Positions 42,530-54,556 of a stretch of 64,000 bases of DNA are shown here, one piece after another. Position 1 is the stretch's first letter, and each line of letters starts with the position of its first letter. A program made the position numbers and the translations under genes. Origin of the DNA: Syntrophales bacterium (GTDB taxonomy: Bacteria > Desulfobacterota > Syntrophia > Syntrophales > PHBD01). Where the stretch lies: the NCBI GenBank assembly GCA_963668175.1, contig OY764159.1, positions 1,856,001 through 1,920,000 on the forward strand, in the 5' to 3' direction. The notes under the pieces were generated by a model. The model had not been told where the DNA came from. It saw only the letters and a list, made by a program, of their open reading frames with translations, and ran no database searches.

Positions 42530-42648
42530 GATTTCAATGATCGTCTTTTATCGTCCGCCGGGAAGCGGCGACGATTGTTTCAGGAGTCGGTCTTTAAGTG
42601 AAAAGGCCCGTTAATAATGGAGAAAATGACACCATAAGGAGAAAGACG

Positions 42649-43338
42649 ATGAAAAGAATGTTTATGGTCTGCCTGTTTGCCTTGATGGCCGTATTCGCGG
42701 CAGCACCCGTCTCGGCGGTCACCGTCGTCGATACGTTCACCGGTCATATCGTTGCTATGGATAGTTACGGCGGTTTGACGACAAACGACTTCAACGGCAA
42801 CTTCGGCGGCGGCAATCTCATCGGCCAGGCGTTCACCCTCGTGATGACGACGACCGTCGATCCCGGAACGACGTACGCCACCGGCAGCGTCTCTTACGGC
42901 TCCTACTATTATCCCCCCAATCCGATTACGGCGGCGCTGACGATCAACGGTTACACCTTCACCATCAACGAGTCCAGCGACGGCTTCACGTCCGATCTGG
43001 GCAGCGGGACCATTGACAAATATCTCCAGGCGTTCGTCTGGAACTCGGGGTTCCAGCTTCAGATGTACGGCATCGTCGTCGATCTCAGCACCCTCGTCGC
43101 CGCCACCAATTCCCTCGATACGGCGCTGCCGTCCATGCTTTTGAGCAACGGCGATTTCATCACCAACTATGCCGCCTTTTACGACCAGTCCATGTTACGC
43201 TATACCGGACAGGTCGAGACGCTCAACCTGGGCATCGAAGAGGTGAATGTCGCGGCTCAGGTGCCCGAACCGGCGACACTCTTCCTTCTGGGGGTCGGCC
43301 TTGTCGGTGCAGGCTTCATCCGACGCCGGAAGGGCTGA
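42649..43338 (+). CDS. PEP-CTERM sorting-domain protein
   Basis: Signal peptide, a T/G/S/N-rich body, and C-terminal VPEPATLFLLGVGLVGAGFIRRRKG; AGGAG RBS before ATG 42649. Confidence 0.93.
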   Translation: MKRMFMVCLFALMAVFAAAPVSAVTVVDTFTGHIVAMDSYGGLTTNDFNGNFGGGNLIGQAFTLVMTTTVDPGTTYATGSVSYGSYYYPPNPITAALTINGYTFTINESSDGFTSDLGSGTIDKYLQAFVWNSGFQLQMYGIVVDLSTLVAATNSLDTALPSMLLSNGDFITNYAAFYDQSMLRYTGQVETLNLGIEEVNVAAQVPEPATLFLLGVGLVGAGFIRRRKG

Positions 43339-43728: not shown

Positions 43729-44370
43729 ATGCCGACGAGCGTCTATTGCTGCATCGAAAGGATGATCTACTATCTGCGGTATCTGAAGCCGTCGTCCGTC
43801 CTCGACGTCGGCGTCGGCAACGGTAAGATGGGCTTTCTCGTGCGGGATTATCTCGAGATCATGACCGGCCAGACCTACCGGCGGGAAGCGTGGCGCGTCA
43901 GGCTGGACGGCATCGAGGCCTTTGAAAATTACATTCAGGACCATCAAAAGGCGCTGTACGACAGGATCGTCATCGGCGACGCCTTCGAACTGATCGACAC
44001 CCTGGAGGCTTACGACCTCGTCATCCTGGGCGATGTCCTCGAACACTTCGAAAAAGAGAAAGCCTGGACATTCCTGGACAAGTGCGCAGCCCGCGCGAAG
44101 CACATCGTTCTCAACATCCCCCTGGGCGAGGGATGGTCCCAGGACGACGCCTACGGCAACGTCTTCGAGACGCACCGGTCGTTATGGAGAAGCGAGGAAA
44201 TCGAACCTTTCGCCTGCGCCAGGGAGTCCTACGCCCTCGCCCCCGGCGAGTACGGCAGTTACCTTATCGATGCGAAAGACTACGCGGCCTACCGCCGCAC
44301 CGGCGAAACCGTGAAGATGCAGCTCGTCTTCGAAACGACGTCCTCCGTCAGGAGGGTCGTGCGTTCCTGA
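43729..44370 (+). CDS. Class I SAM-dependent methyltransferase
   Basis: SVLDVGVGNGKMG, LDGIEAF and YDLVILGDVLEHF. Confidence 0.85.
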   Translation: MPTSVYCCIERMIYYLRYLKPSSVLDVGVGNGKMGFLVRDYLEIMTGQTYRREAWRVRLDGIEAFENYIQDHQKALYDRIVIGDAFELIDTLEAYDLVILGDVLEHFEKEKAWTFLDKCAARAKHIVLNIPLGEGWSQDDAYGNVFETHRSLWRSEEIEPFACARESYALAPGEYGSYLIDAKDYAAYRRTGETVKMQLVFETTSSVRRVVRS

Positions 44371-44484: not shown

Positions 44485-45276
44485 TCAGGAATGCCGGTCC
44501 GGCGGTATGTCCTGGTCGGCATGCAACTGATCCCGGATCTCCTTGAAAGCCTCTGCTATAAGAGAGGCGTTCTGCTGCCTTCTCGAAAAAAGGTTGACGA
44601 TCTTGATGGCGTAACAGTACGCAACGAGGATGCACCCGAAGAACAGGGAGAACATCAGAAGGAATAGATCGTAGCGGATACCGGCCGATATCCTTTCGAG
44701 ATTGTGCAGGGCGATCAGCGGGAAGTCGTAGGCGGCGTGCAGGGCGACCGGCAGGAGCAGGGCCGTCCAGAGAAATCCGGATTTTCGGGCCTCTTTCCAT
44801 TTTACCAGATAATAGCCCATGATGATTCCCAGCGACGCATGGACCGGAACGGCCGTGATGGCCCGGACGACGGCGGTGCCGAAGCCCGAGTGCGAGACGT
44901 AAAGGACATTCTCGATGGTCGCAAACCCGAGGGAAGCAACCGCCCCGTAGACGAGGCCGTCCATCTCCTCGTCGAACGCCGACCGGCGCATACAGAAGAA
45001 AACGAGCAGGAGGAGCTTGAAGAATTCCTCCGGTACCGCCGCCATAAACAATGCCGTGACAAAACCGTTCAGGTAGGGGCCTTGAACGGCGTGAACGGCG
45101 TCCCGCAGCTGATAGCCGTAGATCGACACGGGAACGGTCAGGAGCACGCCGAGGACGAATGTCCAGATGACCACGCCGATGGGCTCCCGATGCAGGTCCT
45201 TGCGGTAGATGTATACGAGCAGGATCGCCGACGGAATCAGCGCGGCGGGAATGGTGATATAAAGGGAATGTATCAT
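44485..45276 (-). CDS. prsW: PrsW family intramembrane glutamic/metalloprotease
   Basis: D..REP, AAVPEEFFK, FDEEMDGLVYG, LGFATIEN, AVPVHA and LHAAYD; start is 45276 or 45330. Confidence 0.88.
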   Translation of the reverse strand: MIHSLYITIPAALIPSAILLVYIYRKDLHREPIGVVIWTFVLGVLLTVPVSIYGYQLRDAVHAVQGPYLNGFVTALFMAAVPEEFFKLLLLVFFCMRRSAFDEEMDGLVYGAVASLGFATIENVLYVSHSGFGTAVVRAITAVPVHASLGIIMGYYLVKWKEARKSGFLWTALLLPVALHAAYDFPLIALHNLERISAGIRYDLFLLMFSLFFGCILVAYCYAIKIVNLFSRRQQNASLIAEAFKEIRDQLHADQDIPPDRHS

Positions 45277-45424
45277 CGGCAAGGCGCTCCGTTCTCTCCC
45301 CCATGTATCCTCATAGCCGACCTCCGGCATCCGGCACGGCCGGTCCGGGCTCCAGAGTATGTTCGCGGGAAAACGCCCGGCCGCCCCGACTGCGGCTTAT
45401 GCCCGTTTTTCCCGCCCGCCGCTT

Positions 45425-48400
45425 CTACTTCTTATGGACGACGAATTTGGCCGGCGCCGACCAGCCCTGGATCGTCGGCTCGTACATGCATTCCATCCTC
45501 GCCGGTTTCGCGAGGAACTGGCCGGGCAGTTCGGCGCGCATCGTGTAGCCGATTTCGTATACGTCGCCCTTCCGGATCTTGGTCAGGAAGAAGACCATCC
45601 GGTTGTCCCATCTTTCACTGTGGGCATACGGCTGATAGTCGTCGTAGACGTTTTTCTTCACGACCTCGAAACCGGCGGGCAGGTAATCTTCCAGCACCAG
45701 GTATTCCAGATCGTCCTGGGCCCGGAATTTGATCTTGACGAGGATTTCGTCGCCGATCGCAAGCCCCAGTTTGTCGTCGATGAACTGCGGCACCAGGTAT
45801 TCGTGGTTGTTGACGTCCCTGACCCGCGTCGCGTGGTAGTAGCTCCGGACGAGGGTCAGGCCGTTGTCGAGGGCTCGGAGGCTCTTGTGTTCCGATGAAA
45901 AGACGGACAGCACCGATTCCGCCATCTTGCCGATGGCCTTTCCGGCTCTGTCGAACATCGAGCCTTCTTCTCCCGATTTCAGGAACGACAGGAACCGGTT
46001 TTCCCTGTAATAGAGGTTGCCGTTGACGGTCAGGTTGAAGCTGACATCCGCGCCGGCCGTGCCCGAGGCTTCGATCCGGAAGTTCTTTTCAGGTGCGGCT
46101 TGGGCGAGCCTGATCTTTTTCGTCAGTCTGTCGGGATGGCCCAGGGACGCCTCGTCGTAATCGATGGCGGCGATTTTGATGCCGTCCATGGTAAAGACGG
46201 CCGTTCCTTTTTCCGCCGCCGTTTTACTCAGGCCGCGGTAATACCGGCATACGGAGAAAATGACCGCCGCCGTTTCCTTCGTCGATTTCCATGCCCCGCT
46301 CTTGCCCCGTTTCATGAGAGAAATGACGGCCTGTGAGGGCAGGGTCGTGTTGTCTCGCGCGGCGGCGAGGGCCGAGAGGACATGGGCGGTGATCTCCGTA
46401 TCGCCGCCCGGCCATCGCCACGGATGGTTGTCCGCCTGGGTCCAGTAAACCCCGAAGCGGTCCCTCTTTTGCATGGCTTTGAGGGCGGCCAGTTGGGGCT
46501 GCATCTGCGCCGCGACGGCGGCTTTCCTGTCTTTGCCCATTTCGATCTTTTCGGCGTTGGCCATCGCCATGATGAGATAGGCGCGGCAGTATGGGTTGAG
46601 ATTGGTTTTCCGGATGAATTCGTTGAAGGCCCCGTCGTTCCATCTTCCCCACAGGGTTTGTGCGTAAAAGAGAAACACCCTGCCGTCGTCGCCGCCGACG
46701 ACATGTCCCTGGAGCATGCGGTCGACGGCCGCAAGCGCCTTTTCGACACGCGCTTCGTCCACCGCGTATTTGAAGTCTTTTGCCATGCTCAGGGCGAAGA
46801 GGACGTAACCGGTGACGAATTCGCTGCCTTCGTCGCCGCTCCACCAGCCCCAGGAACCGTCTTCGTTCTGGAAATTCTGAATCCGCCGCACGCCGTCCTT
46901 GATCTTGGCGTCGAGCTTGGCATCCTGGGTCACCGCGAGGCCGCGCTGCCGGAGCAGGTCTTTGAGGGCCAGGGCGGGCAGGAAGCCGTTTAAGGTCTGC
47001 TCGATGCACCCGTAGGGGAAGTTGGCGAGGTATTCCGAGCCGCGGAGAAGCTGGGAGATGGGGCTCGGGTTCAGGGCGATGACCAGTTCGGAAGGCCGGT
47101 AGACGAAATCGTCCGTGTCTTTGAGCGGCGCCATCTCGACGACTTTGTTGGCGCCCATATCGCCTACGCCGTAGAGCTTGTACTCGACGCCGCGGCTGTA
47201 AACGGGCACGGCGATCCTGAGGGCGTCCTTGGCCTGTTTGTCGGCCACGGCCTGGAAGAAGAGGGCCATGTCCGCCTTGCCCTCGGGGACTTTGACGTTG
47301 TAGTAATTGCTGGCGACGCCGAAGGCGGGCAGGCTCATTTTCACGTTTTGTTCCGGCGCGACGAGCAGATTGTCCACCTTGAATTCCGTGGTCACGGAGG
47401 GCAGGCCCCGCCTGGTATTGCTGTTGACGATCCCGATGAGGCCGAGGGTGTCGCCCTCGATGAAAAAGCGAGGTTTGCCGATCCGGGCAATGAGATCCTG
47501 GGTCACGAGGATTTCGCTCTTCTTCTCGCCGACCTTGCCGCCGAGATCGTGCCCGCGGGCCGTCAGCCGCCAGGTCGTCAGGTTGTCGGGCAGGGTGAAT
47601 TCCACCGTTGCCGAACCGTTTGCGTCGGTCCTGATGCCGCCGTTCCAGTAGGCCGTATCGGCGAATTTTTCCCGGATCTTGACTTTCCCTTCCTTCCCGG
47701 CCCCGGCGAGGACGGTGAAGGGATAGGAGTAGCTCGTCAGCACCCAGTTCGAGTTCTTGGCGTAGAAGTAGTCTCTCATCCTGGGCGTATGGTCGCGGCG
47801 GATCAGGTAGATCGCCTCGTCGACGGCGCCGAGGGAGATGTCGGCCCTCACCGGCTTGCCCGCCTCGTCGGTCGCCTTGATCCTGATCTTTGCCTTGTCG
47901 CCGGGCAGGTATTTCTCCCTGTCGGCCTTGAGATCGATGTTCAGGTTGATCCCCGCGTTCGGCAGGGTCACTTCCGTACTGCTCGTGAACAGGGCGCGGC
48001 CCCTCTGCATCGTGGCCGTAATGAAGACGTTGGGGGCGTACTCCTTTTTGATATCGAGTTTTACCGCCGCCACGTGGCCCTTCAGTCTGACGAGCCGCTG
48101 CTCGTGGATGTCCTTGCCTTCGACGGTCAATAGAAGCGTCGAATCGGCGTATCGGCTTTTGACGAGGCAGGTGATCTCGCCCGGCTTCTCCAGGTCCGCT
48201 TCGCTCACCGAAAGTTCCAGGTTCTTGAGCCGCGACTCCACGCTTGCCGCGCCCAGGCCGTATATCCAGACGACCCGGGACGCCGCGATCAGGTTGTCCC
48301 TTTTGTCCCGGCCCTGGGCGACGATGTCGTATTCGCCGTAGTCAGCGAAGCGGTCGGGCAGTTCGACCTTCGCCAGGCCCGCCGCGTCGGTCTCGACCTT

Positions 48401-51094
48401 GACGGCGAAGACGGGCTTCTGGTCGTGGACGTAGACCCGCTGCCAGGGCCGCCAGAGGTAGCGGTAGACCATGATATCAACCGTCGCCCTGCGGGGTTTT
48501 CCATTGTGGGAGATGGTCCGGATCTCGACGGCCTTCTTGTCGTCGGCGGCAAAAAATCGCTGACTGGGCCGGATTTTGATGTAGTAGTCTCCCCGGCCTA
48601 TCTTGACCGTGGAGCTCTCGGATACGCTCACGTTCGAGTTGTCGACGATGGTGATCTCCAGCGTAAGCTCGCGGTCGTAGGGGAGGTCGCCGCAGGCTAT
48701 CTTCAGCTTGGCGATACCGTCGTTATCCAGGTACTTCTCGCCCTCCAGCTTGATCTTGTTGTAGGCGCGCGGCGCCTCCTTGTCTTCCTCCCACCAGTAC
48801 GTCGTCTCTTCGTCCTGGAGTTTGCGTTCGTAGAAACGATACCTGGCGAGGGCGCCTTTCAGGGGGGAACCGAAGAAGTACTTCGCCTCTACCTTAAATT
48901 CCACCGTTTCCCGATTGACGTAGAATTCCTTGGCGGCCGAAACGTCCACCTTGAATTCCGGCTTCCGGTACTGGTCCACGTAGAATTTTCCTTTGCTGTA
49001 CAACTGCGATTCTTTCCAGCCCGCCCTTATCTCGTAGGTGCCCAGGCGGGTGTCGGCGGCCAGTTGCAGGTTCTTCTTGAACGTGCCCCACCGGTCGAAC
49101 GAGAAGGTGCCGTGGTCGACCACGGCGTTGACGTCCGTGTTGACGATCTGGTAGAGGAGCTTCCTGCCCTTGAGGGGGGACGGGGCCTTCTCCATCGATT
49201 TGCCGACGAATTTATAGTGGACCTTGTCGCCGGCGCGATAGACGGGGCGGTCGGTGTAGATGAATATTTTATCCTTCTCCTGCTGAAATTCCTCCTGCGA
49301 TCCGGTCCTGCTGAAGGCGTAACTGCCGTCCGCGGCGACGGCCATGACGGCCAGCATCTTGCCCGGCGGCACCGGGAAGCGGATCGTCCCGTCGTCGCCC
49401 GTCTTCCCCTGGGCCAGAATGTCGACCGGCAGTTCCTCCAGCCGGGAAGGCGGAGAATACATGGCCTTTCTCTTGTCGCTCCGGGCGGAACGGGCCGGCC
49501 GCTCTTCGTCGCCCTGGTCGTCGTCGTCCGCCCGGGCCGGGGCGATTTCTTCGTCGCGGCTTTCCCCCTCCCGATCGTTCGCCTGTTCGTCTTCGTCCGG
49601 CTGTGCGGGAGCGACGCTCTCGTCCCTCGCCGGTGCTTTCTCGGCCTTCGTTTTCTCCTTGACCGTCACGTCGTAGAGGACGACCGGGGCCCCGGAGACC
49701 GGCCTGTTGCCGGCCAGGTCCGTGGCATAAACAAGGACGGAACTCAGCGAGCGCTTGACGACGATGCCGAGGGACGTGACGCTGAAAATCTTCCTGCTGA
49801 TCGTCCTGTCTTCCCCGCTCGCTTCGATGCAGTAGCTGCCTGTCGGCAGACTCTGGGCGATATCGATATGCTGTTCGCGCCAGTCGTACGGCGCAAAATC
49901 CCTGACCCCTTCCTCCCATTCCCGGACGAGTTGCAGGCCGTCCCTTGCGGGCTGCAGGTTCGCCGCGTCGATTCTGCCCTTGAGGACGATATCGATGGGC
50001 ATCCGGAAGATGCGGACCTTGAATTTCTCCAGCCGGAGCGTCCTCAGGTTAAAGGATATCTGCTGGCCGATGACGAAGGTGTAGCGGTCCGTATAGACCT
50101 CGACCTCCGGATTCCTGGCGGTCAGCGAATAATCGGCATTCTTCCGGACCTGCCCCTCCCTGATAGCGATCGGTTTGGTCTCGAAGCCCTCGAAGCCCCT
50201 GTGAAGGAAGGAGAGCTTGTAATTGCCCGGCTTGATGTCGTCGATTCTGTACGTGCCGTCCTGGTAGGAGGCGGTGGCCTGGGTTGAAGATCCTTCGAGG
50301 CGGACGTCGATATTCGCCGCCGGCGCATCGAGATCGCGGATCGTGAGCTTCCCCGAAACGGATGCGGGCCGGTACATCAGCATCGGCAGCGCCAGAGATT
50401 CCCCGGGTTTGATCTGGCGTATCTGGGCGGTTTCGGCGATGTAGCCCTGTTTTGTAAAGGTCGCGAGATAGCGTCCCCCCGCGGCGATTTTATTGAATCG
50501 GTAGCCGCCGTCTTTGCCGGTCGTGACGAACCGGGGCCTTTCCCCCGAGTAGCCGCCGTCGTCGTCGCTGCTTCCTTCGTCATCGTCGTTGCTCTGCCTT
50601 GCGGAGACGTCGGCGCTGTTCAGTTTCACTTCGACGCCCGGAAGGGGTTTGTGGGCGGAATCGGTGACCACGCCGGATAAGATGCCCTCGCGATCCAGGG
50701 CGAAGGTGTATTCGCCGGGCTGGATGTTTTCGGTCTGCAGGCGGGTGATGTAGCCGTCGGCGGAAACTTCGATCTTGTATGTGATGTGCCTGATGAAGTC
50801 GGCGATGCGGAAGCGGCCGGCCTTGTCGGTCTTCACGCGGTAGTAGCCGAGACCGAAACGGGCGTTCTTCATCTCGACCGTGGCGTTCGTCAGGGGTTCC
50901 TTCGTAGCGGCGTCGACAACGCGGCCGTAAATGACGTCATGACGGGAGAGGTCGCCGGCCTCGTCTTTCTGATAGACCTTTTCGTTTTTGGTCTGCTTCT
51001 TGTCCGCCGCGCTGCCGTGAGTCAAGAAGAAGCCGCACGACACCGCCGCAAGCATTGCGACGAGAACGATCCTGCCCCAAGCCCTTTTTTTCAT
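45425..51094 (-). CDS. Bacterial alpha-2-macroglobulin with N-terminal carboxypeptidase-regulatory-like (beta-sandwich) repeats
   Basis: YTDRPVYRAGD, YRKPEF, YFFGSP, FADTAYW, LPDNLTTWR, thioester PYGCIEQ, QNEDGSWGWW, EDYLPAGFE and MYEP; 1889 aa with an export signal. Confidence 0.93.
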   Translation of the reverse strand: MKKRAWGRIVLVAMLAAVSCGFFLTHGSAADKKQTKNEKVYQKDEAGDLSRHDVIYGRVVDAATKEPLTNATVEMKNARFGLGYYRVKTDKAGRFRIADFIRHITYKIEVSADGYITRLQTENIQPGEYTFALDREGILSGVVTDSAHKPLPGVEVKLNSADVSARQSNDDDEGSSDDDGGYSGERPRFVTTGKDGGYRFNKIAAGGRYLATFTKQGYIAETAQIRQIKPGESLALPMLMYRPASVSGKLTIRDLDAPAANIDVRLEGSSTQATASYQDGTYRIDDIKPGNYKLSFLHRGFEGFETKPIAIREGQVRKNADYSLTARNPEVEVYTDRYTFVIGQQISFNLRTLRLEKFKVRIFRMPIDIVLKGRIDAANLQPARDGLQLVREWEEGVRDFAPYDWREQHIDIAQSLPTGSYCIEASGEDRTISRKIFSVTSLGIVVKRSLSSVLVYATDLAGNRPVSGAPVVLYDVTVKEKTKAEKAPARDESVAPAQPDEDEQANDREGESRDEEIAPARADDDDQGDEERPARSARSDKRKAMYSPPSRLEELPVDILAQGKTGDDGTIRFPVPPGKMLAVMAVAADGSYAFSRTGSQEEFQQEKDKIFIYTDRPVYRAGDKVHYKFVGKSMEKAPSPLKGRKLLYQIVNTDVNAVVDHGTFSFDRWGTFKKNLQLAADTRLGTYEIRAGWKESQLYSKGKFYVDQYRKPEFKVDVSAAKEFYVNRETVEFKVEAKYFFGSPLKGALARYRFYERKLQDEETTYWWEEDKEAPRAYNKIKLEGEKYLDNDGIAKLKIACGDLPYDRELTLEITIVDNSNVSVSESSTVKIGRGDYYIKIRPSQRFFAADDKKAVEIRTISHNGKPRRATVDIMVYRYLWRPWQRVYVHDQKPVFAVKVETDAAGLAKVELPDRFADYGEYDIVAQGRDKRDNLIAASRVVWIYGLGAASVESRLKNLELSVSEADLEKPGEITCLVKSRYADSTLLLTVEGKDIHEQRLVRLKGHVAAVKLDIKKEYAPNVFITATMQRGRALFTSSTEVTLPNAGINLNIDLKADREKYLPGDKAKIRIKATDEAGKPVRADISLGAVDEAIYLIRRDHTPRMRDYFYAKNSNWVLTSYSYPFTVLAGAGKEGKVKIREKFADTAYWNGGIRTDANGSATVEFTLPDNLTTWRLTARGHDLGGKVGEKKSEILVTQDLIARIGKPRFFIEGDTLGLIGIVNSNTRRGLPSVTTEFKVDNLLVAPEQNVKMSLPAFGVASNYYNVKVPEGKADMALFFQAVADKQAKDALRIAVPVYSRGVEYKLYGVGDMGANKVVEMAPLKDTDDFVYRPSELVIALNPSPISQLLRGSEYLANFPYGCIEQTLNGFLPALALKDLLRQRGLAVTQDAKLDAKIKDGVRRIQNFQNEDGSWGWWSGDEGSEFVTGYVLFALSMAKDFKYAVDEARVEKALAAVDRMLQGHVVGGDDGRVFLFYAQTLWGRWNDGAFNEFIRKTNLNPYCRAYLIMAMANAEKIEMGKDRKAAVAAQMQPQLAALKAMQKRDRFGVYWTQADNHPWRWPGGDTEITAHVLSALAAARDNTTLPSQAVISLMKRGKSGAWKSTKETAAVIFSVCRYYRGLSKTAAEKGTAVFTMDGIKIAAIDYDEASLGHPDRLTKKIRLAQAAPEKNFRIEASGTAGADVSFNLTVNGNLYYRENRFLSFLKSGEEGSMFDRAGKAIGKMAESVLSVFSSEHKSLRALDNGLTLVRSYYHATRVRDVNNHEYLVPQFIDDKLGLAIGDEILVKIKFRAQDDLEYLVLEDYLPAGFEVVKKNVYDDYQPYAHSERWDNRMVFFLTKIRKGDVYEIGYTMRAELPGQFLAKPARMECMYEPTIQGWSAPAKFVVHKK

Positions 51095-51726
51095 TTCCCC
51101 ACCTTTCCTGGCTGCGATTTGATGGTTACGGCCTTAAACACGTTCAACTGCAAAATTTCCCTGCCTGAGAGCCTCCGCTTCAAATGCTCCACGCTCCCTA
51201 TCTCCGCCGGGACAAAGACCCATTTCTCGCCCGATTCGAAGGTGACCGCGACGCCGTCGTTCGCGGGGTCGATCCGGTCGATGTCGTCTACAGGGACCTG
51301 CCTGCCGGCGACGGTTACGACGATGCCCGCATCGGCCGCCTCGAAGGCTTCCAGCGGCCGGTAGCGCCTGTCCCGCTTCAGGGCGCCGCGCAGGTAGTCC
51401 CGGAGAAGCTCTTCGATCCTGTCGGTGCGGTGATCGAAAGCGCCGTAGCACCCCCGTACCCGGCCGTTCTTCATGACGGTGACGAAGATGCCGAATTGAC
51501 CGTAAAAAGGCGGCGCCGCGAAACCGGGAGGCCTGGTGCAGCGCGTTCCTGCGAGGATTGCCCCGAGGGAACAGCGCATCCAGGCGATCATATTTTCCGC
51601 CCCTTGCTCCCGGGCAAAAAGCCCCCACCGGGCAAACGGCTCCGAGTCTTCGCCGGCCCGCGATGGTAACGCGAGCGCAAGCAGAAGAAGACAACCCAGA
51701 AAAACGACGGCCGCCGTGTGCTTCAT
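51091..51726 (-). CDS. AMMECR1-domain protein with a signal peptide
   Basis: GIFVTV..NGRVRGCYG, D.RY.PL and GVAV...VFVP; hydrophobic N-terminus ending LPSRA. Confidence 0.75.
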   Translation of the reverse strand: MKHTAAVVFLGCLLLLALALPSRAGEDSEPFARWGLFAREQGAENMIAWMRCSLGAILAGTRCTRPPGFAAPPFYGQFGIFVTVMKNGRVRGCYGAFDHRTDRIEELLRDYLRGALKRDRRYRPLEAFEAADAGIVVTVAGRQVPVDDIDRIDPANDGVAVTFESGEKWVFVPAEIGSVEHLKRRLSGREILQLNVFKAVTIKSQPGKVGK

Positions 51727-52586
51727 TTGATGTACACCGGCGGGAAGAAGTCCCTGTACAGCAACGCCGAATCGACCAGCTTTTCCCCCGAGTACCGCTT
51801 GCGGTTCACGTAGACGGAGATGCCTTGCCTTACGGGGCGCGATCTATCGAGAATGGGAACGTCGACATCCTCCTCTTCCGTTACGATTTCGTATCGGTAG
51901 GGCAGGGGAGGGTCGGATCTTAACGCGACGGTGAGCGTCTTGTCCGTCAGGGTCGCTTCCATATAAAACGTCCGGTCGAAGGGGTTCTTCATCCGGAGGT
52001 CTTTCTTCCCATACATGATCGTGGCATCCAGGCCCAGCGGCGCGTAGGTAATCGGCTGGGAGTGCCGGTGGCGCTCGACGATCTGAAATCCCGCCAATAG
52101 CAGAGCATTGTAAGCCGTCGTGGAAGCCTGGCAGAGGCCGCCGCCGGGCTCCAACCGGGTTTCCTCCCGGTAGAGGACGCGCCCGTAGACGAAGCCGTTG
52201 CGGGCCGAGCCTTCGCCGACTGCGGCATTGAAAGAAAAGACCGACTTGGGCGGGATGACGTGGCCGTTAAGACGCCGGCAGGCGAGCTGAAGGTTGGTCT
52301 TGACCCCCTGGTCCTGGTCTTCTACGGACGTGACGTAGGAGGCCACGGCCGCGATATCCCTGTCTCCGGCCGCGACGCCCCGGGGAAACAAGGCGGCCAG
52401 GACAAGCAGGCCGAGGATGATTGCGCTCAAGCTGCGCTTCCGGTTGCCGCCGGGAATGAGGGGATGACCGTCCGGACACGGTGGGAAAGTGGACTTACGC
52501 GCGGTTTGTCCTGTAGAGAAAGTACGACAGGTCGGCCTTACGCCTCCGGTTTGAAATGCCGTATCGGTTTGGACGGCTCCATGCAT
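51723..52586 (-). CDS. VanW family protein
   Basis: NLQLAC..LNG.VI.P..VFSFN..VG, GGGLCQASTT.YNA, ERHRHS, YAPLGLDAT and DLRMKN. The true start is probably downstream of 52586, near the TM segment. Confidence 0.88.
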   Translation of the reverse strand: MHGAVQTDTAFQTGGVRPTCRTFSTGQTARKSTFPPCPDGHPLIPGGNRKRSLSAIILGLLVLAALFPRGVAAGDRDIAAVASYVTSVEDQDQGVKTNLQLACRRLNGHVIPPKSVFSFNAAVGEGSARNGFVYGRVLYREETRLEPGGGLCQASTTAYNALLLAGFQIVERHRHSQPITYAPLGLDATIMYGKKDLRMKNPFDRTFYMEATLTDKTLTVALRSDPPLPYRYEIVTEEEDVDVPILDRSRPVRQGISVYVNRKRYSGEKLVDSALLYRDFFPPVYIK

Positions 52587-52617
52587 AAATTCAGCAAAGC
52601 CCGACGGGAATGGATTC

Positions 52618-52718
52618 TTGTATATCTGAACTTGTAATACATATGACGTAAAAAGTCAATATTAAATTTATTTTGAACTTATATTAAACATATATTAAAT
52701 ATATTTATATAGATGTTT
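52618..52718. promoter_or_regulatory. AT-rich element with short direct repeats and a palindrome
   Basis: ATATTAAA at 52659, 52681 and 52692; TAAATATATTTA palindrome inside an AAACAT...ATGTTT inverted repeat. Confidence 0.55.
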
Positions 52719-53257
52719 CGAGGCATTGCCGGGAGGATGGGGGCGACTTCCGTTTGGCGGGTATTCATTCTCCCGGGCGATTCAAAATTGGGACAGCCAT
52801 AATTCTGCCGCGTCCGTGCCGGCGGCGGACGACGGGAAAGGGGTCATGGCTGCTTCGCTCCGTCCGAAAGAAACGCGAAAGGCCGCGCAGCGGGCGCCGC
52901 AACTCCTGCGCGGGTTGCGTGCAATCGCCTTGCCTTCTGTCCGGCGAGGCCCTCCATAGCATGTTTCCATGCTTATCGGCGCGTCTGCAAACGGCGAATG
53001 GAGGTTACGAGAGAAGCCCGTCGCGATTTACCGATGAAAGCCGCTACCACAGAAGGATCGGACGGAAAATCCATTCTACGAAGACGATACCGGTTGACTT
53101 GCGGCGGAACATCCTTTACATTTTTGACATCCCGTTCCCATTATTCCTGCGCTTGTTCCATCGGTCCTCAATCCCAAGGGGGCGCACCCCCGTTACGGAG
53201 GCGTACGGTGCCCCGTTATGAACGACGGGGCCGTATTCGGCAACGGACTGTATCGTC

Positions 53258-54556
53258 ATGGAAAAGCTGGACATCGACATCGCGAGGATCGCCCTGCCGG
53301 TCAGCCCGGTCATCCAGGCGGCCCTGCGCGCCATCTATGCCGGCGGCGGCAAGGGCGGCTGGTCGTCGGATATGTACGGCCGGCCCTTCTACCGGTACCG
53401 GACGCGCCTCGGGCACATCACTTTCTTCTGCTCGCCGCCTCCCGATTTCGAAAGGCGCTTCCATCCCTCCATCGCCATGTACTACGCGCCGCGCCTCGGG
53501 TTTGTCTATTCGGGCGGCCTGAGGGAGGCCGTCCATAACCTGTCCGTCGAAACGGCCGATATCTTCCTGATCCTGATGGCAAAGATCGCCCAGCTGAAGG
53601 ACCCGGGCAAGGATATCGCCTGGGTCAGCCTGGACGAAATATCCAGGATGCGGGGCGTCCGCGTCCGGCGCGGCAGCAGCCGGACTCTGCACGATGCGTT
53701 CAAGCAGGAGGTGCTGCGGCTGGCCGATCTTCGCCTTTCGATGCTCTGGAAGGACTACAGGGGCGGCGGCGAAATCGCCGTCGGCCGGGACCGCCCGGAC
53801 AGGCTGCTCGACATCCTCGACATCGAGTACCGGCGGGGCGGCGAGAAGTGGTCGTCTTTCCGGTTCCGCTGCGGGCAGGCCCTGGCCCACTTCCTCGATC
53901 CGGAGGGGCTGTACTGGCTGGGCTATTACAGCCGGTCGCTCCTCAGGCTCAGCCCCTACCACGAGGCCTTCACGAAGAAACTGGGGACCTACTGGATTCT
54001 CGTGGGGACGATCGCCGAAAAAAAGGGATCGCTGCCCCGGGCCACGCCCCGGACGATCCTCGATTTCTGCGGGGAAGCGGTGAACCGGAAACATCCCGGC
54101 CATACGGTCGACGCCTTCATCGAATCCCATCAGCGGCTCCTGGACCTGGGCGTCATCGAAGACATGCCCGTCCTCGAACCCCTGGCGCGCTACCGGGGCT
54201 ATTTCCGGGACTGGCTCGATGCGACGCTGACGGTGAAGCTCTCGGAAAAACTCTGGCGGATGTCGGAGGGGAGAAGGAAAACGCCTCCCGCCCTGCCTCA
54301 ACGGGCCGTTCTTTCCGGAAAGAGGCGCCGCCGCAAGGCGTCCGATTTTCCCGCGCCGAAGACGGGCCGTGAGCTGATGGCCGATCAGTCCGCCATCAGG
54401 CGCTTTCGCGCCGAATACTACTTCCGCCAGGACGAACTGGCCCGCGCCGTCGGCGTGACGAGACAGACCCTCTCCAAGTATGAAAGGGGATTAAGTCCCC
54501 TGCCGGAAAATGCGGCCGACAAGATCGCCGCCCTCTGGCGGAAAAAGGCCGGCTGA
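53258..54556 (+). CDS. Hypothetical DNA-binding protein: putative tandem winged-helix (Rep-like) N-terminus plus C-terminal XRE HTH
   Basis: C-terminal IRRFRAEYYFRQDELARAVGVTRQTLSKYERG is a clear XRE HTH. ADIFLILMAK..VSLDEISRMRG and TILDFCG..HQRLLDLGVI resemble wHTH modules (inference). Confidence 0.7.
   Translation: MEKLDIDIARIALPVSPVIQAALRAIYAGGGKGGWSSDMYGRPFYRYRTRLGHITFFCSPPPDFERRFHPSIAMYYAPRLGFVYSGGLREAVHNLSVETADIFLILMAKIAQLKDPGKDIAWVSLDEISRMRGVRVRRGSSRTLHDAFKQEVLRLADLRLSMLWKDYRGGGEIAVGRDRPDRLLDILDIEYRRGGEKWSSFRFRCGQALAHFLDPEGLYWLGYYSRSLLRLSPYHEAFTKKLGTYWILVGTIAEKKGSLPRATPRTILDFCGEAVNRKHPGHTVDAFIESHQRLLDLGVIEDMPVLEPLARYRGYFRDWLDATLTVKLSEKLWRMSEGRRKTPPALPQRAVLSGKRRRRKASDFPAPKTGRELMADQSAIRRFRAEYYFRQDELARAVGVTRQTLSKYERGLSPLPENAADKIAALWRKKAG

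What the first reader, a model, noticed from the sequence alone, without database searches (positions are those of the whole stretch)
44485..52586. VanW / exported AMMECR1 / thioester alpha-2-macroglobulin / PrsW operon: candidate undescribed envelope-surveillance system
Seen: vanW, the AMMECR1 gene and the A2M gene are chained by ATGA stop/start overlaps (51723-51726 and 51091-51094), and prsW follows on the same strand after about 150 bp. All four products are exported or membrane-bound. Known: bacterial A2Ms usually pair with PBP1C (yfhM-pbpC) or with the yfa/mag genes, neither of which is here; VanW is a poorly understood cell-wall-associated family; PrsW cleaves anti-sigma factors. Inference: the operon encodes a module that traps incoming proteases (A2M), repairs or modifies the wall (VanW, in place of PBP1C) and signals the damage (PrsW).
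Basis: partly seen in the sequence, partly recalled or inferred. Interest (0 to 1): 0.72.

Follow-up and report, generated by a model that had tools for sequence, protein, structure and literature searches.

The report
Macroglobulin–VanW–AMMECR1 operon; prsW a bystander
Three overlapping genes for a giant protease-trap protein, a likely cell-wall cross-linking enzyme and a predicted exported protein of the enigmatic AMMECR1 family recur together in several bacterial phyla as a likely envelope protect-and-repair unit, whereas the neighbouring membrane protease gene prsW does not travel with them.

Summary
The four genes and both ATGA overlaps are real. vanW–AMMECR1–A2M is conserved: the trio is intact in 12 of 14 close-clade loci and 7 of 21 distant loci with enough flank, and A2M and VanW are fused in four loci. 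The thioester (CxEQ), the VanW Cys-His-Asp triad and the AMMECR1 RxCxG/DxR motifs are kept. VanW is a described L,D-transpeptidase family. prsW does not belong: it was found in 0 of 111 related loci, and its only in-order orthologue lies in a genome without this A2M. All five other carriers in the order have a SpoIID–PBP fusion gene where prsW sits here, so the window holds a shortened four-gene operon. That operon was probably acquired from Spirochaetota (AU p=0.012), and the genome also carries an ordinary A2M–PBP1C pair. Best reading: a thioester protease trap with VanW as wall-repair partner; the AMMECR1 role is unknown. New lead: 87 of 120 close A2Ms end in Lys (background 67 of 270), as Lpp does, so VanW might tether A2M to peptidoglycan. 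My literature searches found no paper on it, but this scan noted the trio before in at least 12 other genomes. Verdict: new variant of bacterial A2M operons.

The parts
51723..52430 (-). vanW: VanW-domain protein with an N-terminal signal/anchor, predicted L,D-transpeptidase; Cys100 (52133-52131), His123 (52064-52062), Asp135 (52028-52026). The longest ORF starts at 52586; TTG 52430 is the likelier start
   Evidence: PF04294; the only VanW in the genome; C/H/D invariant in 54 of 54 aligned homologues; positions; start
51091..51726 (-). AMMECR1-family protein (211 aa) with predicted signal peptide, RGCYG (51456-51442) and DRRY motifs, and a Cys52/Cys63 pair (likely disulfide)
   Evidence: PF01871; AlphaFold pLDDT 92.9; the only 5 Foldseek hits under E 0.001 are archaeal AMMECR1 structures 1zq7, 1wsc, 1vaj; R91, C93, G95, D119, R121 invariant in 62 of 62; Cys pair in 32 of the 33 rows that have Cys52
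45425..51094 (-). Thioester alpha-2-macroglobulin, 1889 aa: signal with Cys20 (possible lipoprotein), three CarboxypepD_reg repeats, MG domains, bait region, TED with CIEQ (47008-46997), MG10, C-terminus VVHKK
   Evidence: Pfam; C1363, E1365, Q1366 invariant in 58 of 58; closest solved structures by sequence are E. coli YfhM and Salmonella A2M; motif position
44485..45276 (-). prsW: PrsW-family intramembrane protease (EEFFK, FATIEN, HAAYD present). Same strand, but not a conserved part of the unit; it sits where relatives have a SpoIID-PBP fusion gene
   Evidence: PF13367, NF033739 below its cut-off, motifs; dissociation
52600..52730 (-). AT-rich (27% GC) stretch upstream of vanW with a TTGACT hexamer; candidate promoter region, untested
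   Evidence: seen in the sequence, GC; the consensus scan did not list a promoter here

Best explanation
The three overlapping genes vanW, AMMECR1-like and A2M form a conserved unit that likely works in the periplasm as a protect-and-repair module: the macroglobulin would trap incoming proteases with its intact thioester, VanW is predicted to cross-link peptidoglycan as an L,D-transpeptidase in the role usually given to PBP1C, the AMMECR1 protein is a predicted exported cysteine enzyme of unknown substrate, and prsW is a neighbour that does not travel with the unit. Shown here: gene order, overlaps, synteny, A2M-VanW fusions, intact motifs, the AMMECR1 fold, the SpoIID-PBP fusion as usual fourth gene, and its absence from this genome. 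From established knowledge: bait cleavage exposes the CxEQ thioester, which traps the protease (type I A2M); VanW domains make 3-3 cross-links through a Cys thioacyl intermediate. Inferred: export, co-transcription, joint action at a wall breach, and any catalytic role of the AMMECR1 protein. The full unit (vanW-amm-a2m-spoIID::pbp) would cut glycan strands, make 4-3 and 3-3 cross-links and trap proteases. This genome probably received it, via an ancestor in its order, from Spirochaetota and lost the fourth gene; it keeps stand-alone SpoIID-like and PBP genes and an A2M-PBP1C pair elsewhere.
For: Synteny from A2M-queried GTDB loci: close clade AMMECR1 directly upstream in 16 of 17, trio in 12 of 14; distant clade VanW adjacent or fused in 17 of 21, trio in 7 of 21. 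From AMMECR1-queried metagenome loci: VanW upstream in 25 of 29, A2M downstream in 27 of 30. A2M-VanW in one ORF in L059, L061, L078, L080. Where the operon is split, vanW-amm stay together elsewhere (L172, L173). Motifs: CxEQ in 78 of 79 ORFs covering the site; VanW triad 54 of 54; AMMECR1 RxCxG/DxR 62 of 62, the motifs predicted as the active site in PMC2034487. Hydrophobic N-terminus in 69 of 70 AMMECR1 and 56 of 56 VanW ORFs against 1 of 7 canonical RGCIG proteins. Fourth gene SpoIID/LytB plus PBP transpeptidase with SxxK, SxN and K(T/S) motifs follows A2M in 14 of 24 close loci and in 5 of 5 other carriers in the order. Transfer: 6 of 339 order genomes carry this A2M; their clade nests in Spirochaetota; AU test rejects Spirochaetota as one clade, p=0.0117.
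Against: No activity, localisation or expression was measured. Only 3 of 7 foreign VanW proteins showed L,D-transpeptidase activity in PMC11348318, so an intact triad does not guarantee it. The genome has three YkuD-family genes and an A2M-PBP1C pair, so this unit is redundant by that logic. The trio is not obligatory: 14 of 21 distant loci lack one adjacent member, L044 has A2M with neither partner adjacent (L043 too, with short upstream flank), and 4 of 14 genomes searched gave no AMMECR1 hit. The trap-and-repair role of A2M-PBP1C is itself a hypothesis (PMC5764988). The trees use one gene, a quick search and have long branches.
Confidence: 0.6

Rival explanations
1. Tether model (compatible with the trap role): in the Spirochaetota/Syntrophales clade VanW attaches the macroglobulin covalently to peptidoglycan through its C-terminal lysine, as YkuD-type LDTs attach Lpp and OutB.
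For: 87 of 120 top A2M homologues end in Lys and 64 of 120 in Lys-Lys, against 67 and 13 of 270 other complete ORFs of 250 aa or more in the same loci; partner proteins end in Lys less often (AMMECR1 12 of 53, VanW 18 of 48, SpoIID-PBP 5 of 20). The window A2M ends VVHKK; OutB ends VRTTKK, and a single terminal Lys is necessary and sufficient there (PMC12274547, passages). None of 14 rows of PBP1C-type A2M C-termini (about 11 distinct proteins) ends in Lys.
Against: The homologues share ancestry, so this is one conserved site, not 87 events. Only 4 of 31 distant A2Ms end in Lys although VanW is usually adjacent, and fusions bury the A2M end. Five of 29 close loci with vanW present lack the terminal Lys, while L041, L044 and L129 without adjacent vanW have it. 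No VanW protein is reported to anchor proteins in the passages I read. My first count (82 of 95) used a filter that dropped 25 rows, 20 of which do not end in Lys; the unfiltered count is given.
Confidence: 0.2
2. Scaffold model: the macroglobulin mainly organises a wall-remodelling complex (VanW, SpoIID-PBP) and the AMMECR1 protein is a non-catalytic stabiliser or anchor, like MagB/MagA/MagF for P. aeruginosa MagD.
For: Type II A2M forms a complex with products of its operon (PMC5764988, PMC3735191, passages). The PBP-like part of the fourth gene matches E. coli YfaQ 55-130 (E 6e-6 in a search of four proteins). The A2M-VanW fusion implies physical closeness.
Against: The thioester is kept in 78 of 79 ORFs and the AMMECR1 Cys motif in 62 of 62 rows down to about 20% identity, which a pure scaffold would not need. 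YfaA, YfaT and YfaP show no match to the partners or to this genome.
Confidence: 0.15
3. One reading: a four-gene surveillance system in which PrsW signals the damage by cleaving an anti-sigma factor.
For: Same strand, 148-bp gap, no terminator-like site listed between A2M and prsW; PrsW motifs intact; read-through transcription is possible in this one genome.
Against: A PrsW profile hit 0 of 111 related loci. 27 of 34 module-carrying genomes have a PrsW-family gene, none near the module A2M (nearest on the same contig about 220 kb). In the order, 1 of 338 other genomes has this prsW, and it is not among the 5 with this A2M; its neighbours are unrelated. None of the six sigma-70 region-2 hits lies in the window.
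Confidence: 0.04

Closest known systems
Type I bacterial alpha-2-macroglobulin with PBP1C (E. coli yfhM/ECAM-pbpC; Salmonella Sa-A2M) (PMC5764988, passages)
   Same: Thioester CxEQ A2M with signal and possible lipobox Cys, coupled to a peptidoglycan cross-linking enzyme; closest solved structures by sequence.
   Different: Partner is a VanW-type enzyme plus an AMMECR1 protein (and usually SpoIID-PBP), not PBP1C; three N-terminal CarboxypepD_reg repeats; only about 25% identical to the PBP1C-linked A2M of the same genome.
Type II A2M operon (P. aeruginosa magABCDEF; E. coli yfaA-yfaT-yfaS-yfaQ-yfaP) (PMC5764988, PMC3735191, passages)
   Same: Multi-gene operon of exported partners around an A2M; the usual fourth gene shares a PBP-like stretch with YfaQ.
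   Different: Thioester present, whereas type II lacks it; no YfaA/T/P homologue in the loci or genome; VanW and AMMECR1 are not Mag proteins.
VanW-family L,D-transpeptidases (C. difficile Ldt4/Ldt5) (PMC11348318, passages and section 10)
   Same: PF04294 domain with Cys-His-Asp triad, exported.
   Different: Short protein without PG4/G5 hits in Pfam, in a diderm, coupled or fused to an A2M; activity untested.
AMMECR1 / AmmeMemoRadiSam protein A (PMC2034487, passages; TIGR04335)
   Same: Fold and RGChG and DxRa motifs.
   Different: Signal peptide and Cys pair; no Memo or radical-SAM neighbours; scores 38.7 against a TIGR04335 cut-off of 99; RGCYG rather than RGCIG.

Membership tests
Bacterial alpha-2-macroglobulin (thioester protein) | MG, bait-region, TED and MG10 domains | tested here: met
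Bacterial alpha-2-macroglobulin (thioester protein) | CxEQ thioester motif | tested here: met
   CIEQ at 1363; invariant in 58 of 58
Bacterial alpha-2-macroglobulin (thioester protein) | Bait cleavage and covalent protease trapping | not testable with these tools
   needs biochemistry
Type I A2M-PBP1C system | pbpC adjacent to the A2M gene | tested here: not met
   No pbpC at this locus; the genome's pbpC is beside the other A2M
Type II A2M (mag/yfa) system | No thioester | tested here: not met
   CIEQ present
Type II A2M (mag/yfa) system | yfaA/T/Q/P-type partners in the operon | tested here: not met
   tblastn of four E. coli Yfa proteins: no hit in the genome or in 107 loci; only a partial profile match of the relatives' fourth gene to YfaQ
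VanW-family L,D-transpeptidase | VanW domain with Cys-His-Asp triad | tested here: met
VanW-family L,D-transpeptidase | 3-3 cross-linking of tetrapeptide donors | not testable with these tools
   3 of 7 foreign VanW proteins were active in PMC11348318
AMMECR1 family | Double RAGNYA fold with RGChG and DxRa motifs | tested here: met
   (TM-scores 0.38-0.54, E down to 1e-11)
AmmeMemoRadiSam system | TIGR04335 above cut-off, with Memo and radical-SAM neighbours | tested here: not met
   38.7 versus 99; such loci lie elsewhere in the genome
PrsW/anti-sigma/ECF-sigma signalling | PrsW catalytic motifs | tested here: met
   EEFFK, FATIEN, HAAYD; PF13367 over cut-off
PrsW/anti-sigma/ECF-sigma signalling | Linked sigma/anti-sigma pair or conserved link to the module | tested here: not met
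Lpp-type peptidoglycan-tethered proteins | C-terminal Lys acceptor linked to the stem peptide by an LDT | tested here: inconclusive
   Terminal Lys in 87 of 120 close but 4 of 31 distant homologues; linkage itself not testable

The most novel reading that the evidence does not exclude
A third type of bacterial macroglobulin system built on three cysteine-acyl chemistries: VanW staples the thioester trap to peptidoglycan by its C-terminal lysine and cross-links the wall, while an exported AMMECR1 enzyme acts on the wall or on the trap, giving the first extracytoplasmic, assayable function for the AMMECR1 family and the first protein-anchoring role for VanW.
Probability: 0.15. Interest if true: 0.82.

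Novelty: new variant of a known kind. Interest (0 to 1): 0.54.

Why it matters
What bacterial macroglobulins do with their wall-enzyme neighbours is an open question, and AMMECR1 is a conserved family, including a human protein, whose reaction is uncharacterised in the paper I read. A small soluble AMMECR1 with an invariant cysteine, tied to peptidoglycan enzymes, narrows the substrate search to envelope molecules. The A2M-VanW fusion supports the trap-and-repair idea with a different enzyme, and the terminal-lysine lead is testable by muropeptide mass spectrometry. The prsW signalling arm that made the finding look like a surveillance circuit is not supported.

Tried and rejected
Complex prediction of A2M 1302-1889 + VanW + AMMECR1 (partner scored: AMMECR1) gave 'no answer', score 0.00; not used as evidence either way. 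RNA runs: no RNA holder listed; contigs laid show only presence, and run X5 covers scattered short pieces. Single-protein locus scan with the AMMECR1 protein found nothing; alignments did. No close A2M orthologue in the first 60 relatives (best 22-35%) and no prsW in 40. No remnant of the SpoIID-PBP gene next to prsW (best E 0.23) and no full orthologue in the genome. The first IQ-TREE run did not finish; FastTree and a 24-row tree were used, with C-terminal parts only, the VanW part of fusions removed, and A2M ORFs under 1150 aa left out. A motif search for YkuD found none but the Pfam search found three; the latter is used. Atlas features for homologue P0009 returned only AMMECR1 clusters. 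The PrsW profile's positive control (20 hits) used its own seed loci and is not independent. Terminal-Lys versus vanW adjacency showed no correlation. Literature: macroglobulin+AMMECR1+bacterial 0 papers; macroglobulin+VanW 93, the 20 listed unrelated; five-term SpoIID search 0; AMMECR1/periplasm search, none of 20 listed mentions AMMECR1; 'VanW domain'+macroglobulin 0; macroglobulin+LD-transpeptidase+peptidoglycan 3, listing only. Budd et al. 2004 (recalled as the first survey of bacterial A2M neighbourhoods) was not held; it and its supplements could mention such loci.

Full report
Observation. The minus strand carries vanW, an AMMECR1-family gene, a 1889-aa alpha-2-macroglobulin (A2M) and prsW. 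vanW/amm and amm/a2m overlap by ATGA; prsW starts 148 bp after the A2M stop if ATG 45276 is used. vanW probably starts at TTG 52430, giving 235 aa like four close homologues. GC3 of the four genes (0.76-0.82) resembles three neighbouring genes (0.78-0.82), so composition marks no island. One public contig spans 44292-54800 without a difference, possibly from the source sample.

Host. The genome is one 4.57-Mb contig. It has a second A2M beside pbpC (TIGR02073 over cut-off), two canonical AMMECR1 loci, three YkuD genes and this one vanW.

Conservation. Counting only loci with enough flank: in 26 close-clade loci AMMECR1 is directly upstream in 16 of 17 and the trio is whole in 12 of 14; in 38 distant loci AMMECR1 is upstream in 13 of 29 (14 if L057, whose ORF call overran, is corrected), VanW is adjacent or fused in 17 of 21, and the trio is whole in 7 of 21. 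AMMECR1-queried loci have VanW upstream in 25 of 29 and A2M downstream in 27 of 30. By record titles the trio occurs in Spirochaetota, Thermodesulfobacteriota, Eisenbacteria, Bacillota, Omnitrophota, Myxococcota and Armatimonadota. Order varies (vanW-amm-a2m or amm-a2m-vanW), and four loci encode A2M and VanW in one ORF (L059, L061, L078, L080); these four are one clade. Exceptions: two Cyanobacteriota loci and L044 have A2M without adjacent partners (L043 too, with short flank); in the genomes of L043/L044 vanW-amm lie together elsewhere; in two genomes vanW lies alone; 4 of 14 genomes searched gave no AMMECR1 hit. These loci are related and not independent.

The fourth gene. In 14 of 24 close loci the gene after A2M encodes a 640-710-aa protein with a SpoIID/LytB-like region (below the TIGR02669 cut-off) and a PBP transpeptidase region with SxxK, SxN and K(T/S) motifs. 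All five other carriers among 339 genomes of the order have it directly after A2M. This genome has neither an orthologue nor a remnant. Its PBP-like part matches E. coli YfaQ 55-130 (E 6e-6 among four proteins); YfaA, YfaT and YfaP match nothing.

prsW. A PrsW profile hit none of 111 loci besides the window; 64 of them have at least 1.2 kb after A2M. PF13367 is present in 27 of 34 carrier genomes but never near the module A2M. Only one of 338 other genomes of the order has this prsW (62% identity); it is a 99%-complete single contig that was not among the A2M carriers, and its neighbours are unrelated. No sigma-70 region-2 gene lies in the window. Read-through into prsW is possible, since no terminator-like site was listed in the gap, but it is not a conserved part.

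Catalytic parts. A2M: CIEQ at 1363, CxEQ in 78 of 79 ORFs covering the site. VanW: Cys, His and Asp invariant in 54 of 54. PMC11348318 (passages and section 10) shows VanW domains are L,D-transpeptidases with such a triad, active in 3 of 7 foreign proteins tested; PMC12729407 (passages) agrees. I identified the triad by motif and conservation, not by aligning to Ldt4/5. AMMECR1: confident model, only AMMECR1 structures under E 0.001, R-x-C-x-G and D-x-R invariant in 62 of 62, the motifs PMC2034487 (passages) predicts as the active site. A hydrophobic N-terminus is present in 69 of 70 module ORFs and 101 of 107 profile hits, against 1 of 7 canonical proteins; a Cys52/Cys63 pair fits an oxidising compartment.

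Origin. This A2M is in 6 of 339 order genomes. The Thermodesulfobacteriota sequences form one group inside Spirochaetota (FastTree 99; IQ-TREE SH-aLRT 96 within a 100 clade, rooted on five distant rows), and the AU test rejects a single Spirochaetota clade at p=0.0117. Transfer from Spirochaetota is likely but rests on one gene with long branches.

Mechanism. Best reading (0.6): a periplasmic trap-and-repair unit in which the thioester A2M captures proteases and VanW, with SpoIID-PBP where present, remodels the wall; the A2M-PBP1C version of this idea is itself a hypothesis (PMC5764988, passages). The AMMECR1 protein is probably a cysteine enzyme acting in the envelope; its substrate is unknown. 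Rival (0.2): VanW tethers A2M to peptidoglycan. 87 of 120 close homologues end in Lys and 64 in Lys-Lys against 67 and 13 of 270 background ORFs, as LDT-anchored Lpp and OutB do (PMC12274547, passages); but only 4 of 31 distant ones do and there is no link with vanW adjacency. Rival (0.15): a Mag-like scaffold complex (PMC5764988, PMC3735191, passages). The PrsW circuit gets 0.04.

Novelty. Each part belongs to a known family; the combination fails membership of both type I (no pbpC) and type II (thioester present, no Yfa partners) systems while working like type I. Six literature searches showed no paper on it; subscription papers and Budd et al. 2004 were not available. The scan's own notes report the same trio in at least 12 other genomes; these are unchecked and not counted as support. 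What this window adds: a shortened, probably transferred copy beside an ordinary A2M-PBP1C system, the exclusion of prsW, and the terminal-lysine lead. Verdict: new variant of a known kind, interest 0.54.

Noticed in passing
L026:6844-15015 (G000:C1 about 2378800-2387000): Second, canonical A2M (1981 aa, CLEQ) directly followed by pbpC in the same genome; about 25% identical to the window A2M.
   Followed up: yes
L164:6016-19998 (G215): A second A2M gene and a pbpC-like gene (by N-terminal likeness, not scanned) lie directly upstream of vanW on the same strand, so two A2M systems stand in tandem: a2m-pbpC-vanW-amm-a2m-spoIID::pbp.
   Followed up: partly
L155:6234-11488 (G000:C1 about 3121200-3126500): AmmeMemoRadiSam locus whose radical-SAM gene has a twin-arginine-like N-terminus (TRRTFL) and whose Memo-AMMECR1 fusion has a signal/lipoprotein-like N-terminus, followed by a spermidine-synthase-like membrane protein. 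Exported AMMECR1 may not be limited to the A2M unit.
   Followed up: partly
window A2M residues about 165-185 and 480-545: Two acidic low-complexity inserts that make the window protein about 100 aa longer than spirochaete homologues.
   Followed up: no
window 53258-54556 +: 432-aa protein with only a C-terminal XRE-type HTH, single copy in the genome, divergent from vanW; not found in the 107 related loci.
   Followed up: partly
L055:7591-9138, L085:7374-9080, L070:7456-9162: In Armatimonadota-type loci a 500-570-aa multi-pass membrane protein without Pfam or NCBIfam hit stands directly upstream of A2M in place of AMMECR1.
   Followed up: partly
window 43729-44370 + and 42598-43338 +: Methyltransferase-like gene with a 61% identical paralogue at G000:C1:3293057, and a PEP-CTERM protein; unrelated to the module.
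   Followed up: no
L059: Record titled Betaproteobacteria, but its A2M-VanW fusion and neighbours group with Bacillota loci; possible mislabel or misbin.
   Followed up: no
L055, L100, L105: A2M appears as two ORFs (break or assembly error).
   Followed up: no
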